64,000 nt of DNA from Deinococcales bacterium (lineage in GTDB: Bacteria > Deinococcota > Deinococci > Deinococcales > JAAFIG01), in the NCBI GenBank assembly GCA_043778225.1, contig JAYWGM010000101.1:74760-138759 (forward strand), given 5' to 3'. Position 1 is the stretch's first letter. The number at the start of each line of letters is the position of its first letter. The position numbers are program-made. Below are positions 1 through 64,000 of this stretch, in pieces.

Positions 1-3000
1 AAAATGTATGTCCCTTTACGAGCCTTAAATGGTTTAGCTGGGGTCAGCATTGCGTGGGATGCGACCGCAAAAAGTGTGCTGGTTTCGGTCGAAGGTCTGG
101 TGACACAGATTAAATTAGATTTGGCAAAATTACCAAAAGTTAAACCATAAACCTCGAGTCCAAATCATTGATTTTTGTAGGGGTGATGCTTGTCATCACC
201 CTGCTTTCAGCGACAGAAATTATTTATGCAAAAGGTCTAATCTCGAGTCATTCAGCTAAAATTCAGCTTTGGTTTAAGTTAAGTTGCACCCACCAAGTTT
301 AGAGTGGTTCTCGAGGATATTCAGGGCTTTGGCGCTGGCTTGACTTCGGGAGCGTTTTTTAACTCGAGTTAGGATTTTTTTCTTGGCTCGAGTCAAAAAA
401 CGGGTAAAGGTGCAACATGAAAACTTCAGAACAACGTATTTCGACCACTTTATTAAAAAGCCGCTATATTGTTTTGTTAGCGGTTGGCACGTTGTATTTG
501 CTGTCCATGACTTTATTCGGTTATGCGACCATTAAAACGGCGGTGATGTTGCCGGGTTTGCTGGCAAAATTTACCTCGAGCAGTTCTAAATCTTTAATGC
601 TTTTTGCGGTCGAAACCGCTGATTTATTTTTGGTGGCGGTGGTTTTATTTGTGACTGCCGCAGGGTTGTATGCGCTTTTTATGGGTAGACAAGCCAAAGC
701 CGGCGATGCGGCGGTCACCCGTTGGCTCGAGGTCGAAACACTGGACGACTTAAAACAAAACTTGATTGGCGTGGTTGTGGTGGCAATGGCGGTGCTGTTT
801 TTAGGGGTTTTTATCCGCGATGACCCAGACCATAATTTACTCGAGATTGGCGGTGGAGTTGGGGCGGTGATTGCGGCTTTGGGTTGGTATGTCTCACAAA
901 AATCCAGAGCCAAGGAATCGGATGCCAAGGTCAGCGAAATTAAAGTCAGCGAGACCAAAGTTAGCCAAGAAGAAAGCCAAGCGGCGGCAGAAACACTGGT
1001 TAAATTCAGCGAATCGCTGAAACCATAAAAATGTAAAGACTTGCTTATATTTCAAAGAAGTGTAGAGTACGACTATGAACTTTATCGGAAATTTGTGAGT
1101 CAATACCGCGTTCTGGTGATTGACGATGAACCAAGAATGCGTAGCCTGATGCAGCGTGGGCTTGGTTTGGCTGGATTTCAGGTACAGACGGCTGACAATG
1201 GTGAGCTAGGTTTATTGGCAGTGACCCAAAACCCGCCAGATGTAGTGCTGCTCGACCTGATGATGCCGGGGGTATTCGATGGATTTGCGACCCTCGAGCA
1301 ACTCTTAAAACTCGAGCCACGCCCAAAAGTAATTGTTGTCTCGGGCAGAGACGAACTCGAGGACAGACAAAGGGCAAAGGTGGCGGATGGTTTTTTGGTC
1401 AAACCTGTGGCATTTGATTTTTTGGTGGAAACGATTCATAAAGTTATTCGGGCGTAAGAAGGAGTACCGTGATAAAGCCCAAACCAAAAGAATTACCTGT
1501 CGTGGTTGGCATCGGCGCTTCGGCTGGCGGTCTCGAGGCATTCTCGAAACTCTTAAAGGCGCTTAAACCAGACACGGGCATGGCTTTTGTTTTGCTGCAA
1601 CACCTCGAGCGCAGTCACGATAGCTTGCTGAGCGAATTATTGGCACGCACCACCAGCATGAAGGTTATCGAAATTATAGATGGCATCAGCCTTTTCGCCA
1701 ATTGTGTTTATGTCATTCCACCCAATGTTAGCGTGGTCATGAAGCGCGGTGTTTTACGGCTTTTGCCGCGTCCTGCGGGGCGAGAATTACACCAGCCCAT
1801 CAATGAATTTTTTAGTTCGCTGTCTCAGGCACGGCTGCATCAGGCAATTGGTGTGGTCTTGTCCGGCACAGCTTCGGATGGCACAGTTGGCTTAGAAGCG
1901 ATTAAAGCCGCCGGCGGAATCACTTTTGCCCAGCGTCCAGAGTCGGCACGTTCGCCAGCCATGCCGCGCAGTGCCATCAAAGCTGGTGTGGTGGATTTTG
2001 TGCTGTCGCCCGAAGAGATTGCCGCCAAGTTGGTCAGTTTAGCCCAAGACCCATACTTAGGAAAAGCCAACAAGCGTCAGGCTCGAGCCAAACCAAGTGC
2101 GGCAGCCAGCAGCGATGATGGCTTTGAAGCGATTTTACATTTACTCCAAGATGCCAAAGACGTGGATTTTTCTTTGTACCGCTCAACCACAATTGGGCGG
2201 CGAATAAGGCGGCGGATGCTGCTCGATTCGATGACTTCAACCACACGCTATATCGAACATCTACGCAGTCAGCCAGCCGCGCTCGAGTTGCTGTATCAAG
2301 ATTTGCTGATTGGTGTGACCAGTTTTTTTCGTGATGCCCATGTTTTTGAATGCCTACAAAAAACAGTTTTCCCCGAACTGCTTAAAGACCGTGCCGCCGA
2401 TGATGTGCTGCGAATCTGGGTCAGTGGTTGCTCGACCGGACAAGAAGCCTATTCTTTGGGGATGGCGTACTTGGAATGTATGGCACTTGCCAAAGTCAAT
2501 ATCCCACTGCAAATTTTTGCCACCGACTTAAACGCCCCAATGCTCGAGAAAGCCCGTGCGGGTTGGTACTCGGCTGCCAGCATGGAGAATGTTTCGCCCG
2601 AGCGCCGCAAACGTTTTTTTAGCGAAGAAAAAGATGGTTGGCGCATCAGCGAAGCGGTGCGTGAAAAAATAATCTTTTCAAAACAAAATGTTTTTGCCGA
2701 CCCGCCTTTTTCGCGTATGGACTTGGTTACTTGCCGAAATTTACTGATTTACCTCGAGCCAGCCCTGCAAAGCCGTGTCATTCCAACCCTGCACTATGCC
2801 TTAAAACCGCAGGGTGTCTTGCTGCTTGGCGCTTCGGAAACGGTTGGGCGCTTTGAGGATTTATTTGGCGTGCTTGACCAGTCTTGCCGGTTTTATAGTA
2901 AGCGCTTGGTCAGCAGCCGAATTCCAAAACTCGAGGGGCGAATTGTCAAATCGGTGGTCAGTAAACAAGAACCCACCGCCTCGGTGGTCAGTGCCAGTAC

Positions 3001-63000: not shown

Positions 63001-64000
63001 AAGAAGCGCTAAAGAACATTTGTTTTGTGCTATACTGTTCGTATCGCGGTCGAACCCAGAGTTGCTGCAAGGCAGAACACTTCGACGCTCGCCCCCCGCC
63101 TTTATTGGTGGTCGGGTTTCTAGCCAGGACTGGAATACAAAAAGAAGCAGGGGGAAAAGCAGCCTTTTGGGTTGCTTTTTCGTTAATACCTTTTGTGAAT
63201 GCGTTTACCTTGATTGGTTGCGTGAAGCAGCTTGAAAAAACCAAAATGGTTGGTGCGGTCTAATTTAGGGCGTTCGTTGCTGTTGGGGTCACGTTCATAG
63301 GCACTTTTGATGATGAGTACAGTCTGTCGTTTGACTTTCACCATATCAAAAAAGATGTCATATTCAACTTTTTGATTCTGCACATCCAGCAACTCGAGGC
63401 GAAAGTACGCACCATCTGGTAGGACATAGAATCGTTTGTTGCTCTCGTCAAATGCTCGGATTAAGTCAGGCAGCAATTTGGAAAGTTCCCATCGTTTTTG
63501 GTTAAAGTACCTATTTTTGATGCCTTCTCGAGAATGGGTTTTGCTGTAGATTGGCATGTTATCTTCGTTGCTTGAATCGGTGAATGTGTGGTCAGTAAAT
63601 GTCACCAAGACCAAGAAGTGTTTTGCAGTAGCGGTTGCTATGGCGATTTGCACAAAAGTATGTTCAAAATCATCCAAATGCGAGAGGTTAAAAACTTGAC
63701 TTTTGTGGGCGTAGGGTGTCCACCTTGTCATTCATTTCACGCTACTCATAAAGCCAGTATAGCCAAAAATGAGGTGGCAAGAGTGCTACAAAATGCTTCA
63801 AAGTAAGGAATATATGTACGGTATGGAAAAGACAAATTGTTTTTCAACGTATAACATAGCGAATGCTGCCTTAGTTTCTGTAAACTGTAGTATGAAAGTT
63901 GCCTTAGAGCGTGTTTATAAAGTGTCAAAACGTCTCAAAATCAACTGAATATTCGCCAAATAAGCCCAAGATTCGGTTGTACTCGGTAAACCCTCAAAGT

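What a model noticed while it worked through the whole genome (the two positions that open the first line are those of the whole stretch)
1..64000. CTCGAG is a hyper-iterated palindrome, once per 162 bp, that reshapes the proteome
The hexamer CTCGAG occurs 24,877 times in this 4.03-Mb genome (27 times the composition expectation; 872 times on contig C101), at the same density in genes and between genes, and it makes Leu-Glu the most over-used dipeptide of the proteome. I read it as a Deinococcota counterpart of the cyanobacterial HIP1 element: a site that is actively created and maintained at the DNA level by a sequence-specific process (biased very-short-patch-type repair tied to a CTCGAG modification, or a site used for chromosome handling or DNA uptake), strong enough to override codon and amino-acid choice. 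New would be a second, denser and shorter 'highly iterated palindrome' system outside cyanobacteria, in a ra [...]
Evidence so far: Counts: 24,877 vs 931 expected from base composition; next hexamers are its own overlaps (GCTCGA 9.3x); median spacing 117 bp. Coding 6.19/kb, non-coding 5.92/kb; in genes 60% in frame CTC-GAG, 20% in each other frame. Leu-Glu 20,186 observed vs 8,720 expected (2.3x, top dipeptide; Glu-Leu 8,483); 69% of Leu-Glu is encoded CTCGAG; 53% of CTC and 50% of GAG codons lie in the hexamer. Transition neighbours (TTCGAG, CTTGAG, CTCAAG, CTCGAA) 1.36-1.42x, transversion neighbours depleted (CTAGAG 0.16, CACGAG 0.29). Whole-genome counts with the reversed word GAGCTC as control: all 7 other family genomes counted have 21,883-28,215 sites (4.3-6.4/kb) vs 4-15 GAGCTC (568 in one); 11 Deinococcus-type ge The finding spans contig positions 1 to 138759; this window holds only 74760 to 138759 of it. 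[...]
(Added by a program. Inside this text positions count along the whole contig: contig position 74,760 is position 1 of the stretch shown here. "Call 12" and the like, gene names such as g00115 and contig names such as C1 are that model's own, and its searches are not shown. The text may have been shortened before it was handed on; [...] marks where a part breaks off. The agent that wrote the report below was given it as the finding of a first reader that could run no searches.)

Follow-up and report, generated by a model that had tools for sequence, protein, structure and literature searches.

The report
Hyper-abundant CTCGAG palindrome in uncultured Deinococcales
The six-letter palindrome CTCGAG occurs about once every 160 bases throughout this genome and its whole bacterial family, in genes and between them, strongly enough to change which amino acids the proteins use, and what reads or makes it is still unknown.

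Summary
The window holds 399 CTCGAG against 7.9 expected. The genome holds 24,877, which is 26.7 times the composition expectation. Density is the same in genes and in every class of intergenic DNA.

The signal lies in the DNA, not in translation. CTC is 9% of Leu codons in general but 75% before Glu. Leu-Glu is 2.35 times over-used and Glu-Leu is not. Orthologues in a relative without the motif carry a third as many Leu-Glu.

Sites are kept between species about twice as often as other hexamers, yet only 35% are shared by five species of the genus. This fits a continuing, genome-wide bias toward the exact word, with a log-odds advantage of about 3.3 to 4.6.

New here:
- The same state occurs in a second lineage, in two of three genomes of one genus of another family. 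Weaker versions occur widely in the order, and the largest genus of that other family (111 genomes) has very few sites.
- Hyper-abundance goes with an extreme purge of other restriction-type palindromes.
- Copies interfere with each other within about 20 bp.

No driver was found: no conserved methyltransferase and no Vsr. My best guess is a self-recognition word in DNA exchange, like HIP1 or uptake sequences. This is inferred, not shown.

The parts
1..64000 (.). 399 copies of CTCGAG (first at 153, last at 63527), about 6.2 per kb, spread over ordinary housekeeping genes and the spacers between them
   Evidence: 399 against 7.86 expected; positions and largest gaps; Pfam annotation of 57 ORFs.
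35731..36759 (+). The densest gene in the window. It is MutY-like (HhH-GPD plus NUDIX_4) and holds 14 sites, or 13.6 per kb
21380..23579 (.). The longest motif-free stretch in the window, 2,199 bp. It lies inside a sugar ABC-transporter cluster (21157-24593) whose three genes hold 2, 0 and 4 sites, which suggests younger DNA in this lineage
   Evidence: Across the genome, motif-poor 3-kb windows have low GC and hold cassette-type genes.
30810..31736 (+). N6_N4 DNA methyltransferase gene (308 aa), tested as a candidate driver. Orthologues were found in only 4 of 19 family genomes
5770..6423 (+). Uma2-family putative nuclease, one of 34 copies in the genome. The family is expanded here, but its copy number does not track the motif across the phylum
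5491..5760 (.). Small dispersed repeat with about 8 further copies in the genome at 72-94% identity. No CTCGAG occurs in the 360 bp examined
34565..34940. Patch where a near-identical population in a second metagenome run differs by 33 letters, which looks like a recombination tract. None of the 27 differences listed falls in the three CTCGAG sites of the patch (about 1.4 expected, so no statistical power)

Best explanation
CTCGAG behaves here as a highly iterated palindrome. The exact hexamer has a small advantage at every position of the chromosome, wherever it lies. Each lineage keeps creating and restoring copies against mutation, codon preference and part of protein-level selection.

What is shown:
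- The force acts on DNA.
- It is uniform along the genome.
- It is continuing, not a relic.
- It is strong. The log-odds advantage is about 3.3 in spacers and 4.6 for Leu-Glu codon choice.
- A second copy within about 20 bp gains much less.
- The force is absent from recently acquired DNA.

What is inferred, at roughly one chance in three: the advantage is a transmission bias in DNA exchange between cells. Under this reading the word is read by a protein during uptake or recombination of DNA from kin. Alleles that carry it then spread, as argued for uptake sequences of Pasteurellaceae and Neisseria and, recently, for cyanobacterial HIP1. The same exchange filter would also remove restriction sites, which would explain why hyper-abundance and the purge of other palindromes go together. 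The reader protein has not been identified.
For: DNA level:
- Divergent, co-directional and convergent spacers hold 6.56, 6.26 and 7.08 sites per kb, and spacers under 100 bp hold 6.92, against 6.18 in genes.
- 41% of genic sites are out of the Leu-Glu frame.
- CTC is 9.2% of Leu codons away from Glu and 74.6% before Glu. GAG is 23% of Glu codons in general and 79% after Leu.

Proteome:
- Leu-Glu is 2.14-2.35x in all five genera of the family, and Glu-Leu is about 1.
- Against orthologues of G020, which lacks the motif, G000 has 284 Leu-Glu against 97 over 15,212 aligned dipeptide columns. G000-only positions number 232 and G020-only 45.

Maintenance:
- Against G003 (78% identical), 840 of 1,280 sites are kept. 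That ranks 1 of 1,242 hexamers; all hexamers average 30.4%.
- Retention is 70.5, 55.4 and 67.1% in the three frames and 60.5% (46 of 76) in non-coding DNA.
- One-letter variants are rare, 8.1% against 35.4% for other hexamers.

Uniform pressure rather than special sites:
- At 817 conserved Leu-Glu positions, joint use is 62.7% against 55.4% expected under independence.
- The odds ratio is 6.55, against a median of 4.15 for 102 other dipeptides.

Turnover: of 116 positions with the word in at least one of five species, 41 are shared by all.

Residence time: only 9 of 1,288 3-kb windows hold 4 or fewer sites, all at low GC. The motif-poor genes examined there include a polysaccharide cluster, several large proteins without a known family, and (from the C40 window) a HEPN/GmrSD/methylase island.

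Interference: Leu-Glu pairs 3-5 codons apart are as common as expected (0.88-0.97x), but both are CTCGAG only 0.21-0.47 times as often as expected.

Link to the purge: in the 8 hyper-abundant samples the median O/E of the 64 palindromic hexamers is 0.075-0.33. In the 9 other samples it is 0.40-0.88.

For the exchange reading:
- The abstract of PMC2817400 reports that uptake sequences about doubled their encoded tripeptides and are missing from genes without homologues. Both hold here.
- The abstract of bioRxiv 10.1101/2024.09.10.611283 reports that HIP1 raises transformation.
- Passages of PMC13756078 propose HIP1 as an uptake sequence.
- ComEC, a ComEA-like protein and DprA are encoded in G000.
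- A recombination-like patch is seen between two populations.
Against: - No reader protein has been found.
- The competence genes found are near-universal in bacteria, so they say little.
- From recall, known uptake sequences are 9-12 bases long, not palindromic, and occur about once per kb. From recall, Thermus takes up DNA without known sequence preference.
- Genus g9 of the same order (32 genomes) shows no excess of CTCGAG over the reversed word.
- The one gene with a near-perfect family profile is a membrane HExxH domain fused to TfoX_C, found in 18 of 19 family genomes and 0 of 12 outgroups. It is missing from the second hyper-abundant lineage, G149 and G150. By my positive-inside reading its DNA-binding end probably faces the cytoplasm.
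- Selection and transmission bias predict the same patterns of conservation, so none of my sequence tests separates them.
- The short-range interference could simply be avoidance of hairpins, because two nearby copies form an inverted repeat.
- The samples of relatives are small (20-300 kb) and my gene calls are crude.
Confidence: 0.4

Rival explanations
1. Methylation-linked biased repair, the model Elhai proposed for HIP1. An orphan methyltransferase marks CTCGAG, and a mismatch nuclease that reads the mark repairs near-cognate mismatches toward the full site. Sites are then created and restored as a by-product of repair.
For: - The word is a typical Type II target.
- G000 encodes about 19 DNA methyltransferase genes, and the lineage carries the strongest restriction footprint I have seen.
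- One-letter variants are rare and short-lived.
- The abstract of PMC4390886 proposes this for HIP1 (listing).
Against: - No methyltransferase is conserved. L028 has orthologues in 3 of 19 genomes, L022 in 5 of 19 and the window gene in 4 of 19.
- L020, L021 and L025 have no full-length orthologue in five genomes chosen from all five genera.
- G010 (91% complete) and G002 show no C5 methyltransferase hit.
- Vsr was found in 0 of 19 family genomes while E. coli, B. subtilis and Caulobacter rang.
- Transition neighbours are not depleted (1.16-1.41x).
- Single differences are spread over all three half-site positions, 56, 42 and 81 by my sum of the lists.
- About half of the methyltransferases remain untested here.
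Confidence: 0.18
2. Binding site of an abundant chromosomal protein, for nucleoid packing, alignment of genome copies or segregation. Ordinary selection favours a high and even density of sites.
For: - Density is nearly uniform: 18.5 sites per 3-kb window with variance 24.4.
- There is a footprint-like exclusion below about 21 bp.
- Sites are conserved in all sequence classes.
- The abstract of PMC5861425 argues for this kind of role for HIP1.
Against: - There is no candidate protein.
- The only period found in spacing is 3 bases. The deficit of 300-800 bp gaps is what the short-range exclusion alone predicts (my arithmetic).
- Conservation at Leu-Glu positions is barely above the background odds ratio, so no particular site seems to matter.
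- This reading does not by itself explain the link to the purge of restriction sites.
- Long-range periodicity could not be tested on 107 contigs.
Confidence: 0.2
3. A translational or peptide-level preference. Leu-Glu, or the codon pair CTC-GAG, is favoured in proteins, and the DNA word is a by-product.
For: - 59% of genic sites are in the Leu-Glu frame.
- In two outgroup families the weaker excess is about 80% in frame, so a codon-pair effect may contribute there.
Against: - Spacers have the same density as genes, including spacers under 100 bp.
- 9,229 genic sites lie in the other two frames.
- tRNA genes still hold 6 sites where about 1.2 are expected from composition (the expectation is my arithmetic).
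- Glu-Leu is not enriched.
Confidence: 0.02
4. A relic of a GC-rich ancestor in which CTC and GAG were the usual codons, with sites protected from decay only by protein constraint.
For: GC-rich relatives carry 1-3.5 sites per kb. Leu-Glu is 1.5-1.7x in some of them.
Against: - Density in the family (4.3-6.8/kb) exceeds that of the GC-rich relatives.
- Only 35% of sites are shared among five congeners, and there are many lineage-specific sites.
- Non-coding density equals coding density.
- CTC and GAG are rare outside the word.
Confidence: 0.03
5. Part of a longer mobile repeat, or an artefact of assembly.
For: None found.
Against: - Flanking bases are only weakly biased (G 30.5%, A 26.7%, T 24.7%, C 18.1% at position -1).
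- Spacing is close to exponential (CV 1.0).
- 21 genomes from different assemblies show it, among them a single-contig 5.09-Mb genome.
Confidence: 0.01

Closest known systems
HIP1 (GCGATCGC), the highly iterated palindrome of cyanobacteria
   Same: - A short GC-rich palindrome, 15- to 300-fold over-represented (abstract of PMC5861425).
- Found both in genes and between them.
- Kept between genomes more than control words.
- Its function is unresolved after decades. Current ideas are repair bias, nucleoid structure, or uptake and recombination (abstracts of PMC4390886, PMC5861425 and bioRxiv 10.1101/2024.09.10.611283; passages of PMC13756078).
   Different: - Six letters rather than eight.
- About one copy per 160 bp, denser than the 'more than one per gene' quoted for HIP1.
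- A different phylum.
- HIP1 itself is rare here, 11 copies against 55 expected.
- No conserved cognate methyltransferases were found, whereas HIP1 has two.
- A clear dipeptide effect on the proteome.
- Coupled to a purge of other palindromes.
DNA uptake sequences (USS of Pasteurellaceae, DUS of Neisseriaceae)
   Same: - Genome-wide accumulation of one word.
- Roughly doubled frequency of the peptides it encodes.
- Absent from genes without homologues in relatives.
- Only a weak link to gene function (abstract of PMC2817400).
- The three core competence genes searched (ComEC, ComEA-like, DprA) are present.
   Different: - From recall, known uptake sequences are 9-12 bases long, asymmetric, and occur about once per kb.
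- The uptake bias of known uptake sequences has been measured. Here no culture exists and nothing has been measured.
Restriction-site avoidance and Vsr-driven word bias (CCWGG/CTAG in E. coli; recalled)
   Same: A six-letter palindrome of restriction-enzyme type whose frequency is far from expectation, in a lineage rich in restriction-modification genes.
   Different: - The sign is reversed: 27-fold excess instead of avoidance.
- In the same genome 29 of 64 palindromic hexamers are below 0.05 of expectation.
- No Vsr was found.
Chi sites (recalled)
   Same: An over-represented short word that marks self DNA for the recombination machinery.
   Different: Chi is asymmetric and oriented with replication, and a palindrome cannot be. 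I did not test for RecBCD or AddAB.

Membership tests
Highly iterated palindromes (HIP1 type) | A short palindrome at least about 15-fold over-represented genome-wide | tested here: met
   26.7x in G000 and 12.9-24.3x in samples of the other four genera and a congener.
Highly iterated palindromes (HIP1 type) | [quoted passage not shown] | tested here: met
   6.18 against 6.10-7.08 sites per kb. 65.6% kept against 30.4% for all hexamers, rank 1 of 1,242. 60.5% kept in non-coding DNA.
Highly iterated palindromes (HIP1 type) | Conserved orphan methyltransferases that recognise the word or its core | tested here: not met
   Six methyltransferases tested and none conserved. About half of the roughly 19 genes were not tested, and specificity cannot be read from sequence, so a non-orthologous or unrecognised enzyme is not excluded.
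Highly iterated palindromes (HIP1 type) | The sequence GCGATCGC | tested here: not met
   11 copies against 55 expected.
Highly iterated palindromes (HIP1 type) | Periodic distribution on a 10-90 kb scale | not testable with these tools
   G000 is in 107 contigs. Only short-range spacing was analysed.
DNA uptake sequences | Preferential uptake of DNA carrying the word by competent cells | not testable with these tools
   All 19 family genomes are metagenome-assembled (titles). ComEC, a ComEA-like protein and DprA are encoded, but these are near-universal.
DNA uptake sequences | Encoded peptides about doubled, and the word missing from recently acquired genes | tested here: met
   Leu-Glu 2.35x. 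Motif-free low-GC islands of cassette genes.
DNA uptake sequences | An asymmetric word of 9-12 bases at about one per kb (recalled definition) | tested here: not met
   A six-letter palindrome at 6.2 per kb, with no conserved flanks.
Dispersed repeat or mobile mini-element | Conserved sequence beyond the core | tested here: not met
   Flank frequencies are 18-31% per base. All four 8-letter palindromic extensions are below independence, at 0.30-0.88.
XhoI-type restriction-modification target | Cognate endonuclease present and the site avoided | tested here: inconclusive
   Pfam XhoI (PF04555) was found in 0 of 19 family genomes and in 0 of 5 strongly depleted genomes of genus g7. No control genome rang either, so the search proves nothing. 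The site is enriched, not avoided.

The most novel reading that the evidence does not exclude
CTCGAG is the self-recognition word of a DNA-exchange system in uncultured Deinococcales. Alleles that carry it are taken up or recombined preferentially. The same filter, acting among cells with ever-changing restriction enzymes, strips the genome of other palindromes. On this reading the base composition, the codon use and even the dipeptide content of a whole family are written by transmission bias rather than by organismal fitness. The state is on in two genomes of one genus and off in the third (G149 and G150 against G151), so a single gain or loss of a reader gene may control it and could be found by comparison.
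Probability: 0.3. Interest if true: 0.9.

Novelty: new variant of a known kind. Interest (0 to 1): 0.8.

Why it matters
HIP1 has resisted explanation for three decades, partly because it is a single case tied to one phylum. This would be a second, independent system with four useful properties:
- It is shorter and denser than HIP1.
- It has a measurable effect on protein sequence.
- Its strength is graded across an order.
- It shows an on/off contrast inside one genus.

Together these give the comparative leverage that HIP1 lacks. Genes, methylation marks and recombination patterns can be correlated with a quantitative trait across 364 genomes.

It also shows how far a non-translational force can push a proteome. 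Leu-Glu is more than doubled in five genera.

The accompanying purge of restriction-type palindromes leaves 29 of 64 palindromic hexamers below 5% of expectation. It is among the strongest I know of (a comparison from recall) and deserves study in its own right.

Tried and rejected
Candidate drivers, all negative or broken:
- Six methyltransferases were tested and none is conserved.
- Vsr was found in 0 of 19 family genomes.
- The XhoI endonuclease family was found nowhere, controls included, so the search is uninformative.
- XisH occurs in 15 of 19 family genomes and one outgroup, but is missing from G002, G009, G010 and G012, which have the motif.
- Uma2 occurs in 19 of 19 family genomes with 4-39 copies. 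It is equally expanded in genera without the excess, and G032 has none (matches there are capped at 9 per genome).
- The TfoX_C fusion protein occurs in 18 of 19 family genomes against 0 of 12 outgroups, but is absent from G149 and G150.
  - Its AlphaFold model has pLDDT 89.
  - Only the C-terminal domain matched a solved structure, an uncharacterised Listeria protein, 3mab.
  - The membrane domain matched nothing.

Phages: one scan of viral contigs for three copies within about 80 bp returned mostly GC-rich contigs that also carry GAGCTC.

Population data:
- Only two DNA runs hold the window, both as contigs, and no RNA holder is listed.
- The second population is identical apart from one 33-letter patch, so there is no power for a polymorphism test.

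Other checks:
- Rfam found no family in the window.
- Spacing shows no period other than 3.
- Neighbour-word frequencies range from 0.15 to 1.41, which lies within the ordinary spread of hexamers, so I draw no mechanism from them.
- No unusually similar proteins link G149 or G150 to G000 in the small samples; the best identities are 66-77%.

Literature: no paper in the library holds:
- CTCGAG with 'highly iterated palindrome';
- CTCGAG with Thermus and palindrome in a relevant sense;
- CTCGAG with over-represented, genome and hexamer in a relevant sense;
- 'iterated palindrome' with Deinococc- other than a cyanobacterial review.
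Full report
**Observation**

The window holds 399 CTCGAG sites where dinucleotide-preserving shuffles give 7.86 (sd 2.8, largest 17). 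The assembly G000 has 4,029,277 bp in 107 contigs at GC 48.7%. It holds 24,877 sites against 931 expected from composition, or 26.7x. The reversed word GAGCTC occurs 24 times.

The next most enriched hexamers are the motif's own overlaps. Contig C101 holds 872 sites. Enrichment against Markov models of order 1, 2, 3 and 4 is 47x, 15x, 3.6x and 1.16x. The fall is expected, because the sub-words are themselves mostly made of the motif.

**It is a word in DNA, not a repeat and not a codon habit**

Flanking bases are only weakly biased: G 30.5%, A 26.7%, T 24.7% and C 18.1% at position -1. All four 8-letter palindromic extensions fall below independence, at 0.30-0.88. So there is no longer element.

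My gene calls are crude: greedy ORFs of 90 aa or more, giving 3,630 genes and 90% coding. With them, genes hold 6.18 sites per kb and the rest 6.10. Divergent, co-directional and convergent spacers hold 6.56, 6.26 and 7.08 per kb. Spacers shorter than 100 bp, which cannot hide genes, hold 6.92.

In genes, 59% of sites are in the frame CTC-GAG and 20-21% in each other frame. Codon choice flips with context:
- CTC is 9.2% of Leu codons when the next residue is not Glu, and 74.6% when it is.
- GAG is 23% of Glu codons in general, and 79% after Leu.

**The proteome is changed**

Leu-Glu is 2.35x its expectation and Glu-Leu 0.97x. 69% of Leu-Glu is encoded by the word. 52% of CTC codons and 49% of GAG codons lie in it.

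I compared G000 with orthologues sampled from G020, a relative without the motif. Over 15,212 aligned dipeptide columns, G000 has 284 Leu-Glu and G020 has 97. Positions with Leu-Glu only in G000 number 232, against 45 only in G020. For Glu-Leu the figures are 81 and 49.

The commonest partners of G000's motif-encoded Leu-Glu are Leu-Asp, Leu-Ala and Leu-Arg. Only 36 of 202 motif-encoded Leu-Glu align with Leu-Glu in G020, against 31.9% identity for all dipeptides. So the sites sit at variable positions.

**Distribution along the genome**

Counts per 3-kb window have mean 18.5 and variance 24.4. Only 9 of 1,288 windows hold 4 or fewer sites, all at GC 0.33-0.45.

The motif-poor genes I examined are of several kinds:
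- a polysaccharide-synthesis cluster;
- a HEPN/GmrSD/methylase island;
- several large proteins without a known family.

In the window, the longest gap (21380-23579) lies in a sugar ABC-transporter cluster. The 68 tRNA genes hold 6 sites, against 32.6 at genome density.

Spacing is close to exponential, with mean 160.6, median 117 and CV 1.0. Three features stand out:
- A spacing of 6 never occurs. It would create GAGCTC.
- Spacings under 21 bp are at 0.3-0.7 of expectation.
- The only period is 3.

By my arithmetic, the mild deficit of 300-800 bp gaps is what the short-range exclusion alone predicts.

The exclusion is at the DNA level. Leu-Glu pairs 3-6 codons apart are as frequent as expected (0.88-1.05x). 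But the chance that both are encoded CTCGAG depends on distance:
- 0 of 140 at 2 codons;
- 0.21, 0.41, 0.47 and 0.75 of expectation at 3, 4, 5 and 6 codons;
- mostly 0.83-0.96 out to about 22 codons (0.72 at 7, 0.99 at 17);
- about 1.0 beyond that.

Two readings fit: a footprint of about two helical turns, or avoidance of hairpins, since two nearby copies form an inverted repeat.

**Evolution**

A 301-kb sample of congener G003 aligns to G000 over 203 kb at 78% identity. Of 1,280 aligned G000 sites, 840 (65.6%) are CTCGAG in G003. That is the highest retention of 1,242 hexamers; all hexamers average 30.4% and the 95th percentile is 45%.

Retention is 70.5, 55.4 and 67.1% in the three frames and 60.5% (46 of 76) outside genes, against about 30% for all hexamers in each class.

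This does not show that particular sites matter. At 817 positions where both species have Leu-Glu, the word is used in 77.5% and 71.5%. Joint use is 62.7%, against 55.4% under independence. The odds ratio is 6.55, near the median of 4.15 for the commonest hexamer of 102 other conserved dipeptides. Retention is therefore mostly the same pressure acting in both lineages.

States are bimodal. Only 8.1% of G000 sites face a one-letter variant, against 35.4% for other hexamers. Those variants are transition-biased, 88:14 against a background ratio of 1.68, as expected for short-lived states.

Recurrent alternatives are synonymous encodings three letters away, read:
- TTAGAA for Leu-Glu;
- CAAGGG, that is NCA-AGG-G, for NCT-CGA-G.

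Over 12,206 positions shared by five species of the genus, 116 positions hold the word in at least one species. All five share 41 (35%), against 9.8% for other hexamers. G007 alone has 17 and G000 alone has 8.

So sites are continually gained and lost. Treated as mutation-selection balance (my inference, from the standard log-odds argument), the advantage of the exact word is about 3.3 in spacers and 4.6 for Leu-Glu codon choice.

**Taxonomic spread**

Relatives are titled 'MAG: Deinococcales bacterium'. All 19 genomes of the family, in five genera at GC 0.48-0.62, hold 4.3-6.8 sites per kb. Leu-Glu is 2.14-2.35x in each genus sampled.

Across 364 genomes of the phylum, only 21 exceed 4 sites per kb. 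They are these 19 and two genomes of genus g19 in another family: G149 at 8.6 per kb and G150 at 7.0 per kb. The third g19 genome, G151, has 0.30 per kb (densities use the rounded genome sizes). Samples confirm the contrast.

| Genome | CTCGAG O/E | Leu-Glu O/E | CTC before Glu | CTC elsewhere |
|---|---|---|---|---|
| G150 | 28x | 2.34x | 86% | 13% |
| G149 | 31x | 2.49x | 88% | 17% |
| G151 | 1.3x | 1.36x | 24% | 24% |

Weaker forms are widespread, at 1.4-3.6 sites per kb in several genera of three families. G032 shows 10.6x with CTC 87% before Glu against 19% elsewhere. G025 and G030 show 9.1x and 8.0x, about 80% in frame. Genus g9 (32 genomes) shows no excess over the reversed word. Genus g7 (111 genomes) holds only 26-1,372 sites per genome, and its sampled member G020 is at 0.03x.

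**The palindrome purge**

In G000 the 64 palindromic hexamers have a median O/E of 0.077, against 0.82 for non-palindromes.
- 29 of 64 palindromes are below 0.05.
- Only 32 of 2,016 non-palindromes are that low, and 22 of those contain GGCC.
- GGCC itself occurs 131 times against 14,138 expected.

Degenerate restriction-type words are purged too: GRCGYC 15 of 3,535 expected, GDGCHC 0.025, GGNNCC 0.048, RGATCY 0.026, YGGCCR 0.011 and GACNNNGTC 0.039.

The set differs between close species. CTTAAG is 0.01 in G000 and 0.61 in G003, as expected for changing restriction enzymes.

The purge goes with the motif. The 8 hyper-abundant samples have median palindrome O/E of 0.075-0.33. The 9 others have 0.40-0.88. 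The samples are 20-300 kb, and the hyper-abundant ones represent only two independent lineages.

**Search for a driver**

G000 encodes five full C5 methyltransferases, about four of the N6/N4 type and about nine of the Eco57I/N6 type. Most carry the motif at normal density.

Orthologues of the TaqI-like L028, the orphan C5 enzyme L022 and the window gene occur in 3, 5 and 4 of 19 family genomes. L020, L021 and L025 have none in five genomes chosen from all five genera. G010 and G002 show no C5 hit at all.

Other candidates:
- Vsr was found in 0 of 19 family genomes, with controls ringing.
- The XhoI family was found nowhere, controls included.
- XisH occurs in 15 of 19.
- Uma2 is expanded but does not track the motif.
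- A 271-aa protein with a membrane HExxH domain fused to TfoX_C occurs in 18 of 19 family genomes and 0 of 12 outgroups. It is not found in G149 (58% complete) or G150 (91% complete).
- ComEC, a ComEA-like protein and DprA are present.

**Mechanism**

The data require a force with these properties:
- It reads the exact hexamer on DNA.
- It acts everywhere with similar strength.
- It is still acting.
- It gains little from a second copy within about 20 bp.
- It needs time in the lineage to take effect.
- It is coupled to loss of restriction sites.

Selection and transmission bias, such as biased conversion or uptake drive, predict the same conservation patterns, so I cannot separate them from sequence alone.

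The methylation and repair model lacks its two components. A chromosomal binding protein fits the uniformity and the exclusion, but not the coupling to the purge.

A self-recognition word in DNA exchange fits the most observations:
- the doubling of encoded peptides and the absence from new genes, as described for uptake sequences (abstract of PMC2817400);
- the coupling to the purge, since exchanged DNA must survive the recipient's enzymes;
- the current reading of HIP1 (abstract of bioRxiv 10.1101/2024.09.10.611283; passages of PMC13756078).

It is weakened by the missing reader, by the unusual shortness and symmetry of the word, and by the lack of any excess in genus g9. I give it about 0.35-0.4, binding-site selection 0.2 and methylation-linked repair 0.18.

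**Novelty and limits**

Four searches of the paper library found no report of this word as hyper-abundant in any genome. The library misses most subscription journals.

I file it as a new variant of the HIP kind. It works like HIP1, but fails the membership tests for sequence and for conserved methyltransferases.

Limits:
- The gene calls are crude.
- The samples of relatives are small.
- All the genomes sampled as hyper-abundant are metagenome-assembled.
- There are no methylation, expression or polymorphism data.
- Kin are not independent.

Noticed in passing
Whole genome G000. In the window there is no GGCC, GAGCTC, GACGTC, GGCGCC, CTGCAG, AAGCTT or GATATC in 64 kb: An extreme purge of restriction-type palindromes. 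29 of 64 palindromic hexamers are below 5% of expectation, GGCC occurs 131 times against 14,138 expected, and GRCGYC 15 against 3,535. The purged set differs between congeners: CTTAAG is 0.01 in G000 and 0.61 in G003.
   Followed up: partly
G149, G150 and G151 (genus g19 of another family); loci L321-L337: Two of the three genomes of one genus carry the hyper-abundant state at 7-9 sites per kb, with Leu-Glu at 2.3-2.5x and purged palindromes. The third has none of it (0.3 per kb). This is a natural on/off contrast for finding the driver.
   Followed up: partly
G000:C73, locus L304 4299-5114 (- strand); orthologue in L306 5083-5901: A 271-aa protein with an N-terminal helical membrane domain, an invariant HExxH motif and a C-terminal TfoX_C domain. 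It is found in 18 of 19 family genomes and in none of 12 outgroups. The stand-alone N-domain occurs in other phyla without any Pfam family.
   Followed up: partly
Window 5770-6423 and 33 other places in G000: The Uma2 putative-nuclease family is expanded to 34 copies, and to 4-39 across the family. XisH is also multi-copy, with 8 hits in G000. Both families were searched because they are typical of cyanobacteria by recall.
   Followed up: partly
Window 5491-5760: A dispersed repeat of about 130-270 bp, with some 8 further copies on other contigs at 72-94% identity. It has no CTCGAG and no Rfam match.
   Followed up: partly
G000 genome-wide spacing: A spike at spacing 7 (CTCGAGNCTCGAG): 123 cases against 30-53 at spacings 8-11. 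Unexplained.
   Followed up: no
G000:C19 about 9.9-12.8 kb: ARAGORN finds 68 tRNA genes in the assembly. Four of the six that contain CTCGAG lie within 3 kb on contig C19, which suggests a tRNA gene array.
   Followed up: no
Loci L021 4126-5367 and L028 3746-5698 (G000 contigs C99 and C65): Two DNA methyltransferases, one C5 and one TaqI-like N6 with a TaqI_C domain, each carry an N-terminal MerR-type helix-turn-helix.
   Followed up: no
Samples of G151, G025, G030 and G032: Leu-Glu is mildly over-used (1.36-1.67x) in relatives where the DNA word is weak or absent. This could be a slowly decaying protein-level trace of past motif pressure. Speculative.
   Followed up: no
Window 34565-34940: A second population (run X2) is identical to the window over most of the 20 kb laid, but differs by 33 letters in one contig piece (34565-37223), the listed differences clustering within about 340 bp. 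This looks like a recombination tract from a diverged relative.
   Followed up: partly
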